DNA of 51,585 nt from NCBI GenBank assembly GCA_016180645.1, contig JACPAV010000040.1:1-51585 (forward strand), read 5' to 3'. Numbering within the stretch: position 1 is the stretch's first letter; the number at the start of each line of letters is the position of its first letter. The DNA is from Nitrospirota bacterium (GTDB lineage Bacteria; JACPQY01). A program made the position numbers and the translations under genes. Below, one piece after another: positions 42,830-51,481 of the stretch. The notes under the pieces were generated by a model, which was not told where the DNA came from, did not search any database, and saw only the letters and a list, made by a program, of their open reading frames with translations.

Positions 42830-44137
<1,308 letters not shown>

Positions 44138-44231
44138 GTTTGGATGACCGGAAACGTATTCGCCTTTTCGCGATCGTGCAAGTCTCTTCATGCTCCCGCA
44201 TTCGTCAGCAGTGACGTGTTTGCATCATGGC

Positions 44232-44599: not shown

Positions 44600-45691
44600 T
44601 CACGCACGGAGCCTGAAGCACTTCAATTCTGTCGGAGGGACAGTCCTTTCGTCCCAACTCGGCAGGATCTTGAAACCGGTGATGCCGACGTAGACCTCGC
44701 GGCCGGTTTCGAACCCGCTCGCCACCGAGATCCCCTCGGGAACGTGAGCGATGACCCGCTTTCCGTCACCGACATCCAATACCAACTCGATCACCGGCCC
44801 TCTGAAACGTGCGCTCTCGATTTGCGCCGGCACTTGCATGGTTTCCTGGCGGGAGGTGACGTACACGTCGTGCGGCCTGAAGAAAACCCGCACCTTGCCG
44901 CCGGGAGGGAATCCGTTGGCGCTGAACTCGAATCCGCCCCAATGCGCGAGACCGGGCTCGACCACGTCCGCTTCCATGAAATTCGATTCGCCGACGAACT
45001 CCGCCACGAAGTTGGTTGCGGGATGATCGAAAATCTCCCGCGGTGTGCCGTCCTGCTCGATGCGGCCGTGGTTCATCACGATGATGCGGTCGGCCACTTC
45101 CAGCGCTTCGTGCTGATCATGGGTGACGAACAGCGTCGTCGTCCGCGTTTTCTCGTGCAGCCGCCTGATCCATTCGCGAAGCTCCTCCCGCACTTTCGCG
45201 TCCAGCGCCCCGAATGGTTCGTCCAGCAGGAGCACGGCCGGACTCGGGGCGAGCGCCCGGGCAACCGCTACGCGCTGCCGTTGGCCCCCCGAGAGTTGTG
45301 ACGGGAACCGGCGCTCCAGTCCTTTGAGCTGAACGAGTTCGAGGAGTTCGGTAACGCGCTGCTCGATCTCAGTCCGCCTCGCCTTTCTCACCTTGAGGCC
45401 GAAGGCGACGTTGTCCCACACCCGCATGTGCCCGAAAAGGGCGTAGTGCTGGAAGACGAACCCGACGTTGCGTTCCCGGGCCGAAAGGCCGGTGGCCTCT
45501 TTCCCGGTGAGGAGAACGTCGCCGCCGTCCGGTATCTCCAACCCGGCGACGATTCTGAGAAGCGTGCTTTTCCCGGAACCGCTGGGACCGAGGATGGCGA
45601 CCAGGCTCCCGGTTTCCACTTGGATGCTCACGTCGTTCACGGCCGTAAAGCCGTTGAATCGCTTGGTGAGGCGTCTGATTTCGATGCTCAC
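44600..45691 (-). CDS. cysA: Sulfate/thiosulfate ABC transporter ATP-binding protein
   Basis: [41 protein letters not shown] start overlapping the cysW stop. Confidence 0.95.
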
Positions 45692-46527
45692 TGGATGTCC
45701 TCCCTTGTCTTCCATTCCATGATGCTTCTCACGGCCAGCGTCACCAGGGCGAGAAGGGTGAGCAGCGAAGCCACGGCGAACGCAGCAGTGAGGTGATATT
45801 CGTTGTAAAGAATTTCGACGTGCAGGGGGACCGTGTTGGTCAGCCCCCTCACGTGGCCGGATACGACCGAGACCGCGCCGAACTCGCCCATCGCTCTCGC
45901 GTTGCAGAGGATTACGCCGTAGAGGAGACCCCACTTGACGCTTGGGAGCGTGACGCTCCGAAACGTCTGCCATCCGTTTGCGCCGAGGACGGCGGCCGCC
46001 TCTTCCTGCTCCTTGCCTTGCTCTTGCATGACGGGGATCAGTTCGCGCGCGACGAAGGGGAACGTGACGAAGATCGTGGCGAGGATGATCCCCGGCGTGG
46101 CGAAGATGATTCGGAGGTTGTGTTCCACCAGCCAGGGGCCCAGCCAACCCTGGAGACCGAACAGGAGGACGTAGACGAGACCGGACACGACAGGCGAAAC
46201 GGAAAAGGGCAGGTCGATCAGCGTTACGAGCGTCTGTTTCCCACGGAACTCGAACTTGGCAATGGCCCACGCCGCCGCCAATCCGAAGAGCGTGTTGAGT
46301 GGCACCACGATGGCCGCCGTGAGGAGAGTCAGCCGAATGGCGTCCAGAGTCATCGGCTCCCGGATGGCGGCCCAATACATCGCAAGGCCCTTTTGGAACG
46401 CCTGAGTGAACACCGCAACGAGCGGGGTAAAAATGAACAGGCCGAGAAAGACCAGCGCCGTGCCGATCAGGAGCCTGCGGACCCACGCGGGCTCGGCGTC
46501 CATCTTTCGTGCAACGTCGGATCTCAT
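45688..46527 (-). CDS. cysW: Sulfate ABC transporter permease
   Basis: [40 protein letters not shown]. Confidence 0.96.
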
Positions 46528-47402
46528 CGCCTGGCGCTCCGTGCCTGAAGAATGTTCACGGCGAAGAACAGGAGAAACGAAGCGATGAGCATCGCCACGG
46601 CCACGGCGGTCGCCCCGGCATAGTCGTACTGCTCGAGCTTCGTGATGATGAGCAGCGGCGCGATCTCGGTCTTCATCGGCATGTTCCCGGCGATGAAAAC
46701 AACCGATCCGTACTCGCCCACGGCACGTGCGAAGGCCAGGACGAAGCCGGTGAGGAGCGCGGGAGCCAGTCCCGGTAGGATCACGCGGAGGAACGTCTGG
46801 AAGCGGCCGGCGCCCAGGCAGGCCGCCGCCTCTTCGACATCCGGATCGAACGCTTCCAGGACCGGTTGCACGGTCCGAATTACAAACGGCATCCCGATGA
46901 AAACGAGCGCCACCACCACGCCCAGCGGCGTGTACGCCACGCGAATCCCGAGCGAGGCCAGCGGGGCTCCGAGCCATCCGGTCGGCGCAAACAGGAAGGT
47001 GAGGGTGATCCCGGCGACGGCGGTCGGGAGCGCGAACGGGAGGTCTACGAACGCATCCACAAACCGCCGTCCTGGAAACCGATAGCGCGCCAGCACCCAT
47101 GCTGTCAGCAACCCGAAGGGGAGGTTGATCACAGCGGCGACGAGCGAGGCTCCGAAGCTGAGACGATACGAGGCCAGTACGCGCGGCGACGTGACGATTC
47201 CCAGGAAATCGGGCCAGGCGAGCGTGGCCGCTTTCAGAAACGTTGCCGAGAGCGGGATCAACACGATGAGCGTGAGATACGTCAGCGTGAATCCCAGCGT
47301 GAGTCTGAACCCGGGGAGGACGCGGCGGCGAGGCCGGGCAAATCCCCCCCACCCCCCTGAGGAGGGGGGAGGGGGGGCACTGAGGGGAGGATTCGTCACC
47401 AT
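46524..47402 (-). CDS. cysT: Sulfate ABC transporter permease
   Basis: [41 protein letters not shown]. Confidence 0.96.
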
Positions 47403-48434
47403 TCATCTCCCCGGCTGATAGATCTGATCGAAGATGCCGCCGTCGCTGAAATGCGTTTTCTGGGCCTTCTGCCAGCCGCCAAACACCTCATCGATGGTGA
47501 AGAGGTTCAGTTTGGGAAAGCGGTCGGCGGTTGCGGCGGCCACGGTGGGATCGCCCGGCCGGTAGAAGTTCCGGGCGGCAATCTCCTGGCCTTCCGGCGA
47601 GTAGAGGTACTCGAGATACGCCTGGGCCACGGCCCGCGTCCCGTGCCGGTTGACGACCTTGTCCACGAGACTCACCGTCGGCTCCGCGAGAATGCTGATG
47701 GAAGGGACGACGAGATCATATTCACCGGGGTTCAACTTCCGCGTAATCAGCAGGAGTTCGTTCTCCCAATTGATCAGCACGTCGCCGATGCGGCGTTCGA
47801 CGAACGTGGTCGTCGCGCCGCGGGCGCCGGAGTCGAGGACCGGCACGCGCTTGTAGAGCGCGGTCACATAGTCCTTGGCCCTGAGCTGATCGCCGCCGCT
47901 TTTCCGCAGGGCATAGCCCCACGCCGCCAGGTAGTTCCAGCGCGCGACGCCGGATGTCTTGGGATTGGGCGTGATGACCGAAACGCCCGGCTTCAGCAGG
48001 TCTTCCCAATCCTTGATGCCCTTCGGATTGCCCTTGCGCACGAGGAAGGCCAGCGTCGAGGTGTACGGCGAGCTGTTGCGCGGGAGGCGCTTCTGCCAGT
48101 CCTTTGGAAGGAGGCCGGCCTTCTCGTTGATGGCGTCCACGTCGTACGCCAGCGCGAGCGTTACGACGTCCGCCTCCAGCCCGTCGATCACGGAGCGGGC
48201 CTGTTTGCTGGAGCCGCCGTGGGATTGATTGACGACGACGTCCTGTCCCGTCTTTGCTTTCCAGAACTTCGCGAACGCCGCGTTGAAATCCTGGTAGAGT
48301 TCGCGCGTCGGATCGTACGAGACGTTGAGGAGCGTGATGGGGCCTTTGGCGAAGGCCGCGGGCGCTCCGGGAATGTCGAGAACGGCGATCAGGGTGATCG
48401 CGGCGATCGTTCGAGTGATGCTGTGAATAAACAT
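47403..48434 (-). CDS. sbp: Sulfate-binding periplasmic protein
   Basis: [45 protein letters not shown] before MFIHS. Confidence 0.96.
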
Positions 48435-48460
48435 GGAAGTTTCTCCTTTGTGTCTTGTTT

Positions 48461-49825
48461 TCAAAACGCGACTTGGAAGCGGTTGAGAACGACTTTCTCG
48501 CTCTCACGGTCTTTTCGGTCCTTCGCGCCTCCCGTAAATCTCGTCTGTTCGTAGTCGAAGACGAGCTTGATGTTCTTGTTCAGATGCCAGTTGAGACCGC
48601 CGGCCAGCGCGATGGCGCTCCGGGCCGATTTGGCAGGATCGGCAAAGTCCGGAAAGGCCGCCTGGTCCACCCGCAGGAAGTGGTACCGCGCGGCCAGTTC
48701 GAGCGCTCCCCACCCGCCGCCCGGCGGATCGAACGGGCGTTTGATCTTGGGCGCCTTGAAACCTGCGTCCTCTCCCGTGAGGAATAACGTGGCGGCCGCT
48801 TGGAACGCATCGTTCTTCAACGTCACGTGCGTTTCCGCCTTCTTGACCTCCTGCGAGGATCGGGCGTATTCCGTCGCGAGGCTGAGTGACCTCCAGTAAT
48901 AGTAGGCCTGTGGTTCCAGACGCGAGCGGGTTCCGCCGGCCAGCACCTCGGAGCCGTAGCTGAAGAAGGTTGCCTGGCCGGGCGTTTTGTAAGTGGGCAG
49001 GTTGGCCGAGCCGCTTTTCCCCTGCTGGTTGCCGTAAGTTACGGCTGCGCCCAGACCCAGACCTTGGGCCGCCCAGACCGAGGTATTACGGAAAGGATGA
49101 GCGAATACGCGGCCGACAAGGTCCTTGGCGTCATGGTTATCGCCGTCTCCGCTTCCGCCGTCGACGACTCCGTTGAATACCCCGAGGGCATAGCTCGCGG
49201 CGCCGCCCGAGAGATCGCCGGAGAGCTGCAACCCGATGTCGCGGTTCGGGCCGATCGACGTGGGGAAGCCCCGCTCAACGAACACGATGTCGGTTCCCGA
49301 TTGGAGACGTTCGAGGTCGAACGGCGCCTTGAACTTCCCGGCGCGCAGTTTGGCCCAGGGCCAGTATCCGATATCGAGGTACGCCTCCTGCACGGCCGCC
49401 TGCCCGTTGCCCCAGTCCGGCAGGAACCGGAAGTCGAACCACTTCGAGACGGTCCCCTCGAAGCTCGGGCGGACCCGCCGGAGAACGAAGGTGTTCACGT
49501 CCGACTTGTCCTCGTCACCGAAGAAGAGCCGGGCGTCCGACTGGATGTAGCCACGGAGTTTGAACTGGTAGCTGCCGTCCGGCGCTTTCAAAAAGAAACC
49601 GTCCGAGCCGGCGCCGACGAGGCCGGCCTTTTTCGCCGCTTCGGCGGCGGCTTCCTTTTCGTTCTCCTGTTTCCGTTCCACGATTCGGAGGCGTTGGTCG
49701 AGGACTTCGATCCGCTCCTCCGTTGTCGCCTTCGGCGACTGTTCTTCAGAGCGTGCCGGTGGCGCGAATCCCATGATCGCGCTACCGAGTGCGCCCGCCA
49801 TCACGAACCACCGTGAGTTCCACAT
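48461..49825 (-). CDS. OprO/OprP-family anion-selective porin
   Basis: Signal peptide, coiled coil, [29 protein letters not shown], terminal F. Confidence 0.9.
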
Positions 49826-49946
49826 GACATTGCTCCTTTTCGTTACCCCCTGTTACGGGGTTCACGGGATCCTCCGGTCGTCCGGTCGGGTCGCCTTGCC
49901 ATTCAATTGCGCCTCCGTGGGTTCGGTCGGCCTGTTTTTCGCCGGG

Positions 49947-50141
49947 TTACCCCAGCCGTTTGCGCTCGATGCGCTCGATCTGTATGGGCCGGCCCTGGTG
50001 ATACGTGATCACCACGGTGCCGAACTTGAGTCCGCGAGCCGCCTGCTCGATCTCCTCCCAGGGGAGTTCAAGGACAAGTTCCCGCGCCTCGGGGCGTTCC
50101 CGCGAGGGTTTTTCCGTTCTGAGATCAACTGCCGCTTCCAC
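49947..50141 (-). CDS. YezD/DUF2292-family small protein (sulfur-starvation associated)
   Basis: GLKFGTVVITYHQGRPIQIERIERKR; AAGGAGG RBS; first gene of the sulfate uptake operon. Confidence 0.85.
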   Translation of the reverse strand: MEAAVDLRTEKPSRERPEARELVLELPWEEIEQAARGLKFGTVVITYHQGRPIQIERIERKRLG

Positions 50142-50253
50142 GATGGATTCCTCCTTTTGGAAATGGAACGTGGATAGACCAACGAACTGTTGTGTCTTTG
50201 GGAGGGACCACCCCGCGGATGAAACCCGCGGTTACGCAGACAGGGGGTGGCCC

Positions 50254-50358
50254 CTATCTACAGATACAGCGGCAGCAGAAGAGAGAAGAAGAAAAATGAA
50301 CAGGGCGGGGCATCGGACTCGACGCCGTTTCGATTCGGTTGACTGATTGCCTGTTCAT
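50254..50358 (-). CDS. Putative Cys-rich leader peptide (34 aa; 19 aa from the inner ATG at 50313)
   Basis: MNRQSVNRIETASSPMPRPVHFSSSLFCCRCICR*; 4 Cys in the last 7 codons; upstream of the sulfate operon. Confidence 0.7.
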   Translation of the reverse strand: MNRQSVNRIETASSPMPRPVHFSSSLFCCRCICR

Positions 50359-50367
50359 GATTTTCCA

Positions 50368-50396
50368 CTTGTATCCCAACCCTCCCTTTTTGTCAA
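50368..50396 (-). promoter_or_regulatory. Sigma70-type promoter of the leader/sulfate operon
   Basis: TTGACA (50391-50396), 17 nt, TACAAG (50368-50373). Confidence 0.7.
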
Positions 50397-50449
50397 GATG
50401 CTGAAAATGAGGTTGACGCCGGCGCGATTGCGGGGCATGTCATGCGTGA

Positions 50450-51481
50450 ATGAATGTGAAGTCGTGTGCGATCATGTTTGTCGCTGGAATGGTGGGTATC
50501 GGAACCGCCGCTTGTGGCCATCGATCCGGCGACAGAATGGAGCTTTCGATTCCGAACTTCCCGGCGCTCCAGGATCCGTCCTTCGCCATCGATCCGGTCC
50601 AGCTCCAAGCCGAAGCGAATTCCTACTGTGCTGACCCCGGGGCGGGCGACCCGGCGGCCGGGTTCTTCCTGGGCGAGCTTCCCATCGGGGCGTTCGATAC
50701 TTTGTGCTCCGTGCCGCCGGAGAGACAGTGGGTGGGTCCCCTCCTGGGGCTGCTCCACCTCTCCGGATACTTTGGAGGCATTTGGCTCAAAGGGGCACTC
50801 TCCGCATCCGGCGGGGGCCTCGGGTGGGAGGGAGTGGGACAGGAGGTCCCCGCAGATGGTTCGGCGAGTCGTGCTGTCGAAATTCTTGCCGAGGATCGAT
50901 TGGCGGCTGCGCTCAGTCCCATCGAATCGAGTTTGTCTGCGGCATCGCGAGAGGTTGTTCCAGCCTTGCTGGCGATCTACGGCTACAACCTCGGGTACCT
51001 CCGAACTCTGATCGAGCATTCTCCGGCGGGCATGCAACTCCCCACAGGAGTTCTTGAATGTGATTCGTTCCTGGGCTGCACGAGCACGGCGGTGCGACTC
51101 GACATTCTTGAGAAAAATCGCGCGCTCATCCTGAATCTGTCCGCACCGCCCTCCGAACCATGGCGGGAGTGGGCCGAGACCGTCTCGCGGATCGAAGAGA
51201 GCACCACGGGTTCGGGACGAAGCGTGTGGGAGGGGATTCTGTCCGGCTCGGTGGTGAGGCCGGACGCGTACGGTCCCCTGTTGGCCTTGAGCGCGGGGTA
51301 TCTCATGGCGAGCGAAGCCGCGGTCCTCATCAACATGGATGCGTGGGCGTCTGTGGACCCGGGCAAGTCTCGCTGCGGGCTGCTCCTGGACGCGGGTCTC
51401 GAGGTCTGGTCCGCAAGCTATTTCCTTGGACTCGTCTCCCCAGCTCCGGAAGGCACCTTTCCGCGGCTGAGGTGTCCATAG
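50450..51481 (+). CDS. Hypothetical lipoprotein, mostly helical
   Basis: 343-aa ORF with TAAC lipobox; no family recognised. Confidence 0.7.
   Translation: MNVKSCAIMFVAGMVGIGTAACGHRSGDRMELSIPNFPALQDPSFAIDPVQLQAEANSYCADPGAGDPAAGFFLGELPIGAFDTLCSVPPERQWVGPLLGLLHLSGYFGGIWLKGALSASGGGLGWEGVGQEVPADGSASRAVEILAEDRLAAALSPIESSLSAASREVVPALLAIYGYNLGYLRTLIEHSPAGMQLPTGVLECDSFLGCTSTAVRLDILEKNRALILNLSAPPSEPWREWAETVSRIEESTTGSGRSVWEGILSGSVVRPDAYGPLLALSAGYLMASEAAVLINMDAWASVDPGKSRCGLLLDAGLEVWSASYFLGLVSPAPEGTFPRLRCP

What the first reader, a model, noticed from the sequence alone, without database searches (positions are those of the whole stretch)
50135..50396. Candidate cysteine-sensing leader-peptide attenuator controlling sulfate uptake
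Seen: TTGACA-17-TACAAG promoter; 9 nt later an ATG with no SD (near-leaderless) opens a 34-codon ORF ending SSSLF-CCRCICR-TAG. After the stop comes a GGGCCACCCC/GGGGTGGTCC stem enclosing a CCGCGG hairpin. Then TCCACG-TTCC..TCC-AAAA-GGAGGAA..CGTGGA can pair over the yezD SD and GTG. The end of the leader (GTAGATAG) is complementary, with one mismatch, to CTATCCAC in the 5' arm of that sequestering stem. Known: leaderless poly-Cys small ORFs attenuate cysteine-related operons in mycobacteria. Inference: ribosome stalling at Cys codons flips the structure and frees the yezD-porin-sbp-cysTWA operon. I am not aware of this being described for such an operon in a diderm of this type.
Basis: partly seen in the sequence, partly recalled or inferred. 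Interest (0 to 1): 0.82.

Follow-up and report, generated by a model that had tools for sequence, protein, structure and literature searches.

The report
Cysteine-sensing leader before sulfate uptake genes
A 34-codon mini-gene ending in four cysteine codons sits in front of this bacterium's sulfate-uptake genes and is kept in its one available relative; it likely lets a ribosome stalled for lack of cysteine unmask the next gene's start, a control shown so far only in mycobacteria.

Summary
The leader ORF (50254-50358, -; ...FCCRCICR*), the promoter-like site and the stems are as described. The only same-family genome held (G001) keeps TTGACA-17-TACAGT, a start 7 nt later, a 32-codon ORF ending FCCCICR*, 21 identical nt across the stop, and the same alternative helices. 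A promoter-proximal Cys-rich ORF precedes 9 of 224 related yezD/porin regions (7 outside this family); nine control residues give 0 and Met gives 1. So a cysteine-sensing leader is very likely. Instead, in both genomes the Cys codons are predicted to pair with the first codons of yezD (probability 0.98-0.99 on free RNA); a ribosome on the tract lowers the cost of opening the yezD start by 10-14 kcal/mol. No U-tract terminator. This works like mycobacterial Ms5788A translational attenuation. Nothing is shown experimentally; the structure rests on two genomes. Earlier notes of this scan report poly-Cys leaders on other DNA (Acidobacteria, Myxococcota, other sulfate-uptake operons). New variant of a known kind.

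The parts
50391..50396 (-). -35 hexamer TTGACA of a likely sigma-70 promoter
   Evidence: Sequence; same hexamer at the same place in G001. TSS not mapped.
50368..50373 (-). -10-like hexamer TACAAG (17-nt spacer; lacks the final T)
   Evidence: G001 has TACAGT at 17 nt; not called by the consensus scanner.
50254..50358 (-). 34-codon leader ORF, no SD, start 9 nt after the -10
   Evidence: G001 has a 32-codon ORF 7 nt after its -10, N-terminal part not alignable, ending FCCCICR*.
50260..50277 (-). Cys tract C-C-R-C-I-C (likely sensor codons)
   Evidence: 4 Cys in both genomes, TGC and TGT mixed; 2 of 9619 short ORFs genome-wide are this Cys-rich at the end.
50296..50358 (-). Predicted hairpin burying the leader's own start codon (50350-50358 with 50296-50304)
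   Evidence: 9 bp in both genomes with different sequence; z -2.6 and -2.1. Role inferred.
50235..50262 (-). Hairpin A over the last codons and stop; predicted on free RNA
   Evidence: P 0.96 (G000), 0.95 (G001); two U-G to U-A changes keep pairing; z -2.9.
50205..50253 (-). Stem B (GGGCCACC / GGTGGTCC), exclusive with A, enclosing hairpin C (50213-50231)
   Evidence: Arms identical in G001; C differs in sequence but pairs in both; B reaches P 0.77-1.00 with a ribosome on the middle Cys codons and 0.00-0.01 on free RNA.
50137..50174 (-). Hairpin D over the yezD SD and GTG (this genome only)
   Evidence: Present in all computed states; no equivalent over the SD in G001.
50129..50136 (-). yezD codons 2-4 (AGCGGCAG), predicted partner of the Cys tract (50268-50275): helix E
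   Evidence: P 0.99 on free RNA; G001 has a 10-bp equivalent, P 0.98; null tests.
49947..50141 (-). yezD / DUF2292 (OscA-like), 64 aa, GTG start, SD AGGAGG 50150-50155
   Evidence: PF10055 44.1 bits over cut-off; NF033785 OscA E 5e-9, below its cut-off.
48461..49825 (-). OprO/OprP-family porin
   Evidence: PF07396.
44600..48464 (-). sbp, cysT, cysW, cysA (sulfate ABC transporter)
   Evidence: TIGR00971, TIGR02139, TIGR02140, TIGR00968, all over cut-off.

Best explanation
[quoted passage not shown] With cysteine plentiful the ribosome finishes and leaves; hairpins A and C fold, the Cys tract pairs with yezD codons 2-4 (helix E, stacking on hairpin D here), and the leader's own start codon is buried, so the message stays off. 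With cysteine scarce the ribosome sits on the tract, E cannot form, A is broken and stem B forms (in G001 this also withdraws an anti-SD segment). Passing the effect on to porin-sbp-cysTWA is inferred to occur by polarity (Rho is present). Shown: sequence, conservation in one relative, enrichment of the architecture, computed folding. Inferred: transcription start, translation of the leader, stalling, the folding switch in vivo, polarity.
For: Conservation in G001 of promoter spacing, ORF length, Cys tract, stop and helices while the leader's N-terminal part has diverged. Promoter + start within 4-20 nt + 3 or more of one residue in 5 codons: Cys 9 of 224 regions (215 after removing overlaps; 7 hits outside this family, about five independent since L168/L174 and L169/L175 are alike), H, Y, F, N, D, E, K, Q, W 0, M 1, reverse strand 0. 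Helix E P 0.99 and 0.98 on free RNA, lost under a ribosome; opening cost of the yezD start (-20..+20) falls from 30.2 to about 16 (G000) and 20.9 to about 10-12 kcal/mol (G001); holds at 15 and 37 C and for two transcript ends; shuffling the tract reaches the observed drop in 1 of 60 and 0 of 60 trials. Tract:start duplex as strong as observed in 39 of 1193 (G000) and 0 of 1193 (G001) SD-led gene starts, and in 4 of 112 and 0 of 112 other yezD starts. In G000 the free-RNA cost (29.9 for -18..+13) is above the 95th percentile (23.7) of 120 sampled genes and the ribosome-bound cost (15-16) is near the median (13.8). L168 and L174 pair their Cys tract directly with the porin SD and start. The Rrf2 type found beside yezD elsewhere (motif in 63 of 224 regions) was not found in G000 or G001: their 3 Rrf2 proteins score 58-76 bits against 233-250 for the 9 model members themselves. 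Precedent: Ms5788A (10.1101/834739).
Against: Only two genomes carry this architecture, both possibly from one sampling site (G001's sequence lies in run X1), so covariation counts are few. Helix E was noticed in the folds and tested afterwards; the promoter test was designed after I had seen several hits. In G000 alone E is modest: 378 of 3000 synonymous recodings of yezD do as well, 12 other windows within 2.5 kb pair better, and swapped tracts pair almost as well as cognate ones (-25.0 vs -27.6; -19.4 vs -20.5); Ala-Ala codons complement Cys codons by nature. In G001 E lies at +13..+22, so a strict 30S footprint (-18..+13) changes only from 10.6 to 8.4-9.4 kcal/mol. SD-only accessibility does not change in either genome. 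The model does not explain why stem B is the most conserved part in G000, where B forming does not lower the opening cost. A ribosome at the stop codon blocks E as well, so sensing depends on dwell time. No expression data.
Confidence: 0.58

Rival explanations
1. Same Cys sensor, but the output is transcriptional: the A/B/C switch controls an RNA polymerase pause or Rho-dependent termination between the leader and yezD, and helix E is incidental.
For: The strongest nucleotide conservation is in A and B (21 + 9 identical nt), which flip cleanly with ribosome position in both genomes. The leader is C/U-rich just before the Cys codons in both. Rho is present in both. Rho-dependent control was proposed for actinobacterial Cys leaders (PMC1262725, passage read, where the authors call it weak). 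L090 and L295 use clear intrinsic terminators after their Cys leaders.
Against: No hairpin followed by a U-tract in G000 or G001. The 104-112 nt between stop and yezD are mostly paired, a poor Rho loading site (inference). Does not account for E in both genomes.
Confidence: 0.24
2. One reading: stalling frees GTAGATAG to pair with CTATCCAC and open hairpin D over the yezD SD.
For: 7 of 8 pairs are possible and D is in the MFE.
Against: Probability 0.00 in all six states; GTAGATAG is taken by hairpin A or covered by the ribosome. Neither D nor CTATC is in G001.
Confidence: 0.05
3. The ORF is not a sensor: the conserved core is a protein-binding site, a small-molecule-binding RNA or a DNA inverted repeat for a repressor, or the ORF makes a small Cys-rich peptide acting on its own.
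For: TGTAGATAG...CTATCTGCA in G001 is a near-perfect inverted repeat and resembles the TCTAT..ATAGA-like sites seen at Rrf2-led yezD promoters (read by eye). Translation is not shown.
Against: The helices use G-U pairs, which suit RNA; the site is over 100 nt from the promoter; no Rfam match; only the Cys codons and stop are conserved, in frame with a promoter-proximal start in both genomes; unrelated Cys leaders recur before the same genes.
Confidence: 0.13

Closest known systems
Mycobacterial polycysteine leaderless sORF attenuators, esp. Ms5788A (bioRxiv 10.1101/834739; read: abstract, parts 1, 3 and 4 of 6, and search passages; Table 1 is an image and the supplements are closed)
   Same: About 30 codons, (near-)leaderless, Cys run at the 3' end, about 100 nt to the next gene, no intrinsic terminator, Cys tract pairing with the next gene's initiation region, small first gene with polarity to the rest.
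   Different: No sequence relation tested or expected; porin-bearing lineage; predicted partner is the start codon and first codons, not mainly the SD; extra A/B/C switch and a hairpin over the leader's start. Ms4533 is listed there as responsive; that it is a sulfate-binding protein is my recall, not from a call, and if right, control of sulfate uptake by such leaders is already known.
uORFC-8-2 before cysS in Rhodobacterales (PMC8632094, passage read)
   Same: Predicted Cys-codon uORF attenuator in a diderm.
   Different: Two tandem Cys codons, intrinsic terminator with U-run, target cysS; predicted only.
Predicted Cys leader peptides before cys/cbs operons in Actinobacteria (PMC1262725, passages read)
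   Same: Cys run near the stop, no terminator, pyrimidine-rich stretches.
   Different: No conserved hairpins there; here two genomes share alternative helices.
Classical trp/his-type transcription attenuators (as described in 10.1101/834739)
   Same: Leader with a run of cognate codons and mutually exclusive hairpins set by ribosome position.
   Different: No terminator hairpin with U-tract; output predicted at translation.

Membership tests
Polycysteine leaderless-sORF translational attenuator (Ms5788A type) | Short ORF (<150 nt) with at least two consecutive Cys codons | tested here: met
   105 nt, CC-R-C-I-C; G001 99 nt, CCC-I-C.
Polycysteine leaderless-sORF translational attenuator (Ms5788A type) | First ORF of an operon tied to cysteine or sulfur metabolism | tested here: met
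   Precedes yezD-porin-sbp-cysTWA; upstream gene is divergent.
Polycysteine leaderless-sORF translational attenuator (Ms5788A type) | Transcript starts at the AUG/GUG (leaderless) | tested here: inconclusive
   Start 9 nt (G000) and 7 nt (G001) after the -10, no SD: fits 0-3 nt of leader, but no TSS data.
Polycysteine leaderless-sORF translational attenuator (Ms5788A type) | Cys tract pairs with the downstream ribosome-binding region | tested here: inconclusive
   Predicted pairing with start codon and first codons in both genomes; strong in G001, modest in G000; SD itself is not the partner.
Polycysteine leaderless-sORF translational attenuator (Ms5788A type) | Downstream expression responds to cysteine and needs leader translation | not testable with these tools
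   Needs reporters or ribosome profiling.
Classical transcription attenuator (trpL/hisL type; uORFC-8-2) | Leader peptide with cognate codon run | tested here: met
Classical transcription attenuator (trpL/hisL type; uORFC-8-2) | Mutually exclusive hairpins set by ribosome position | tested here: met
   A versus B in constrained folds of both genomes; computational only.
Classical transcription attenuator (trpL/hisL type; uORFC-8-2) | Intrinsic terminator: GC hairpin followed by a U-tract | tested here: not met
   None on the - strand; none in G000 or G001, found in L090 and L295 by the same script.
Known riboswitch or T-box | Match to an Rfam model | tested here: not met
   4 weak unrelated matches, all below gathering score, in 49700-50600.

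The most novel reading that the evidence does not exclude
A one-shot, multi-helix cysteine switch: the leader buries its own start codon, the Cys codons lock the start of yezD, and YezD in turn acts on the conserved small hairpin boxes behind its gene to turn on the sulfate porin and transporter. Cys leaders with different outputs have repeatedly replaced the Rrf2 repressor in front of this operon across phyla.
Probability: 0.15. Interest if true: 0.75.

Novelty: new variant of a known kind. Interest (0 to 1): 0.5.

Why it matters
Cysteine-codon attenuation has been demonstrated only in mycobacteria in the papers I found. This locus, and seven unrelated leaders found before the same porin or yezD gene, suggest it is a recurring way to control sulfate uptake in porin-bearing bacteria, alternating with an Rrf2 repressor and using at least three outputs (terminator, SD pairing, start-codon pairing). 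It gives a compact element with named compensatory mutations to test, and a route to the function of DUF2292/YezD.

Tried and rejected
Rfam: nothing. Second copy of the 17-nt core in G000 or G001: none with 0-1 mismatch besides the locus; 3-mismatch hits equal the control. Cys leaders at other sulfur genes: none in the stretches scanned around the cysK-like and NIR_SIR hits of G000 and cysH, cysK and NIR_SIR hits of G001, so no multi-locus regulon is shown. More members of this exact structure: the GGGCCACC arm was in none of 126 other yezD upstream regions; DUF2292 searches of 251, 151, 201, 201, 201, 251 and 121 genomes of other groups gave 25, 15, 10, 2, 9, 6 and 4 genomes with a match and only one Cys leader (L295). 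L112, L064 and similar tail hits were rejected as off-frame reads of Rrf2-led or coding DNA. Sequencing runs: no RNA holder listed; contigs of 4 DNA runs of one study show no variant in the leader. SD-only accessibility did not separate the states. Whether gene callers have annotated the leader could not be looked up. Literature searches: (listings); none listed a Cys leader before yezD/oscA or a sulfate porin; PMC11109978, PMC10727445 and PMC13236596 were read as search passages only and add no such case; subscription papers are not covered and no supplements were read.

Full report
Observation. On the - strand the window has TTGACA (50391-50396), 17 nt, TACAAG, 9 nt, and an ATG at 50358 that opens a 34-codon ORF ending FCCRCICR-TAG, with no SD. 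The -10 lacks its last T and the consensus scanner did not call it. 112 nt after the stop starts a 64-aa DUF2292/YezD gene, then an OprO/P-type porin, sbp, cysT, cysW, cysA and a chromate transporter. In this genome 2 of 9619 short ORFs with tails outside long ORFs have 4 or more Cys in the last 8 codons; this is one. Rfam has no match.

Conservation. Of 60 relatives offered, one (G001) is of the same family and the rest share only the domain; a source names G001's porin 'Nitrospirae bacterium'. G001 keeps the layout: TTGACA-17-TACAGT, 7 nt, ATG, 32 codons ending FCCCICR-TAG, then yezD 104 nt later. The N-terminal codons do not align, but 21 nt across the stop and the 9-nt GGTGGTCCC are identical. 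Its sequence also lies in run X1, so the two genomes may come from one site; they are different genera with porins 62% identical.

Related operons. I fetched 160 loci with this porin and DUF2292 loci from seven group searches. Most have no Cys leader: 2 of 126 other yezD loci with 450 nt of upstream DNA had a short ORF with 4 Cys in 6 codons (L131, L295; control residues 0-2), and 63 of 224 regions show an Rrf2 motif. Requiring a TTGACA-like hexamer, 16-18 nt, TA-led hexamer, a start within 4-20 nt and 3 of one residue in 5 codons gave Cys in 9 of 224 regions (215 after removing overlaps): G000, G001, L090, L117, L168, L169, L174, L175, L295. H, Y, F, N, D, E, K, Q and W gave 0, M gave 1, the reverse strand 0. 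I set this test up after seeing several of the hits, and two pairs are close kin, so it is about five independent outside cases. Their Cys codons mix TGT (30) and TGC (18). Outputs differ: L090 and L295 have intrinsic terminators; L168 and L174 pair the Cys tract with the porin SD and start. G000 and G001 have 2 and 1 Rrf2 genes, none close to the yezD-linked type (58-76 bits against 233-250 for the model's own members); G001 is 84% complete.

Folding. On free RNA both leaders fold hairpin A over the stop (P 0.96, 0.95), hairpin C, and helix E between the Cys codons and the first codons of yezD (P 0.99, 0.98). With a ribosome on the middle Cys codons E is lost, A breaks and stem B forms (P 1.00 at Cys31 in G000; 0.77-0.92 at Cys28-29 in G001). 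Opening the yezD start (-20..+20) costs 30.2 kcal/mol free against about 16 bound in G000, and 20.9 against 10-12 in G001, at 15 and 37 C and two transcript ends alike. Shuffled tracts reach that drop in 1 of 60 and 0 of 60 trials. The duplex is matched by 39 and 0 of 1193 SD-led starts and 4 and 0 of 112 other yezD starts; against this, 378 of 3000 synonymous recodings match it in G000 (5 of 3000 in G001), other windows in the G000 operon pair better, and swapped tracts pair nearly as well. With a strict -18..+13 footprint G001 changes by only 1-2 kcal/mol, and SD-only accessibility does not change. Both leaders also bury their start codon in a 9-bp hairpin of different sequence (z -2.6, -2.1). 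No U-tract terminator is present; Rho is.

Mechanism. That the ORF senses cysteine by ribosome stalling is likely (about 0.87 summed over the three sensor readings). Transcription start, translation, stalling and in vivo folding are all inferred. The model leaves unexplained why B is so conserved in G000.

Comparison. It works like Ms5788A, where the poly-Cys tract pairs with the next gene's ribosome-binding region and distal genes follow by polarity (10.1101/834739). It meets two defining features, two are inconclusive and one is untestable here. It fails the terminator test for classical attenuators. Cys leaders are also predicted in Actinobacteria (PMC1262725) and before cysS in Rhodobacterales (PMC8632094). 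oscA is co-transcribed with a sulfate-binding protein gene in Pseudomonas (PMC3596284, passage). Six searches listed no Cys leader before yezD/oscA or a sulfate porin; supplements were not seen, and Table 1 of the preprint, which names the mycobacterial target genes, is an image. Earlier notes of this scan describe poly-Cys leaders before sulfate operons in at least 13 other genomes; none resembles this DNA by sequence. They are unchecked notes and I do not count them as support.

Verdict. New variant of a known kind, interest 0.5.

Noticed in passing
window 49872-49887 (-), weaker copy 49913-49928 (-); many yezD loci: A small inverted-repeat box, ACC(G/A)G-ANNN-C(C/T)GGAG, follows yezD in 72 of 129 other loci, 0 on the reverse strand. 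The arms covary: 57 CG/CG, 18 CA/TG, 1 CC/GG, 2 broken, no G-U; often two copies. Candidate YezD/OscA-linked RNA hairpin or DNA site; no Rfam match.
   Followed up: partly
L090, L117, L168, L169, L174, L175 (before the porin); L295 (before yezD): Unrelated promoter-proximal poly-Cys leaders before the same operon, with terminator or SD-pairing outputs. L169 and L175 have both an upstream Rrf2 motif and a Cys leader.
   Followed up: partly
L131:2981-3061; L044 just before the porin: Cys-rich short ORFs inside operons: in L131 overlapping the stop of a cysA-like gene ahead of yezD, in L044 after a sulfite-reductase-like gene and overlapping the porin start (gene names read by eye).
   Followed up: no
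Upstream of yezD in L023, L025, L033, L112, L119, L136 and others: Rrf2 gene next to yezD, in tandem or divergent, with a TCTAT..ATAGA-like site over the promoter: the usual control of this operon elsewhere.
   Followed up: partly
window 42830-44191 (-): A chromate efflux transporter gene (TIGR00937) lies about 400 nt after cysA on the same strand, beside a divergent-ending urease cluster.
   Followed up: no
G000 whole genome: No strong CysH/PAPS reductase match (best E 1.3e-8) in this 97% complete genome, whereas G001 has one (E 3e-48); the route of sulfate reduction here is open.
   Followed up: no
window 50450-51481 (+): Divergent 343-aa ORF with a lipoprotein-like N-terminus and no NCBIfam match.
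   Followed up: no
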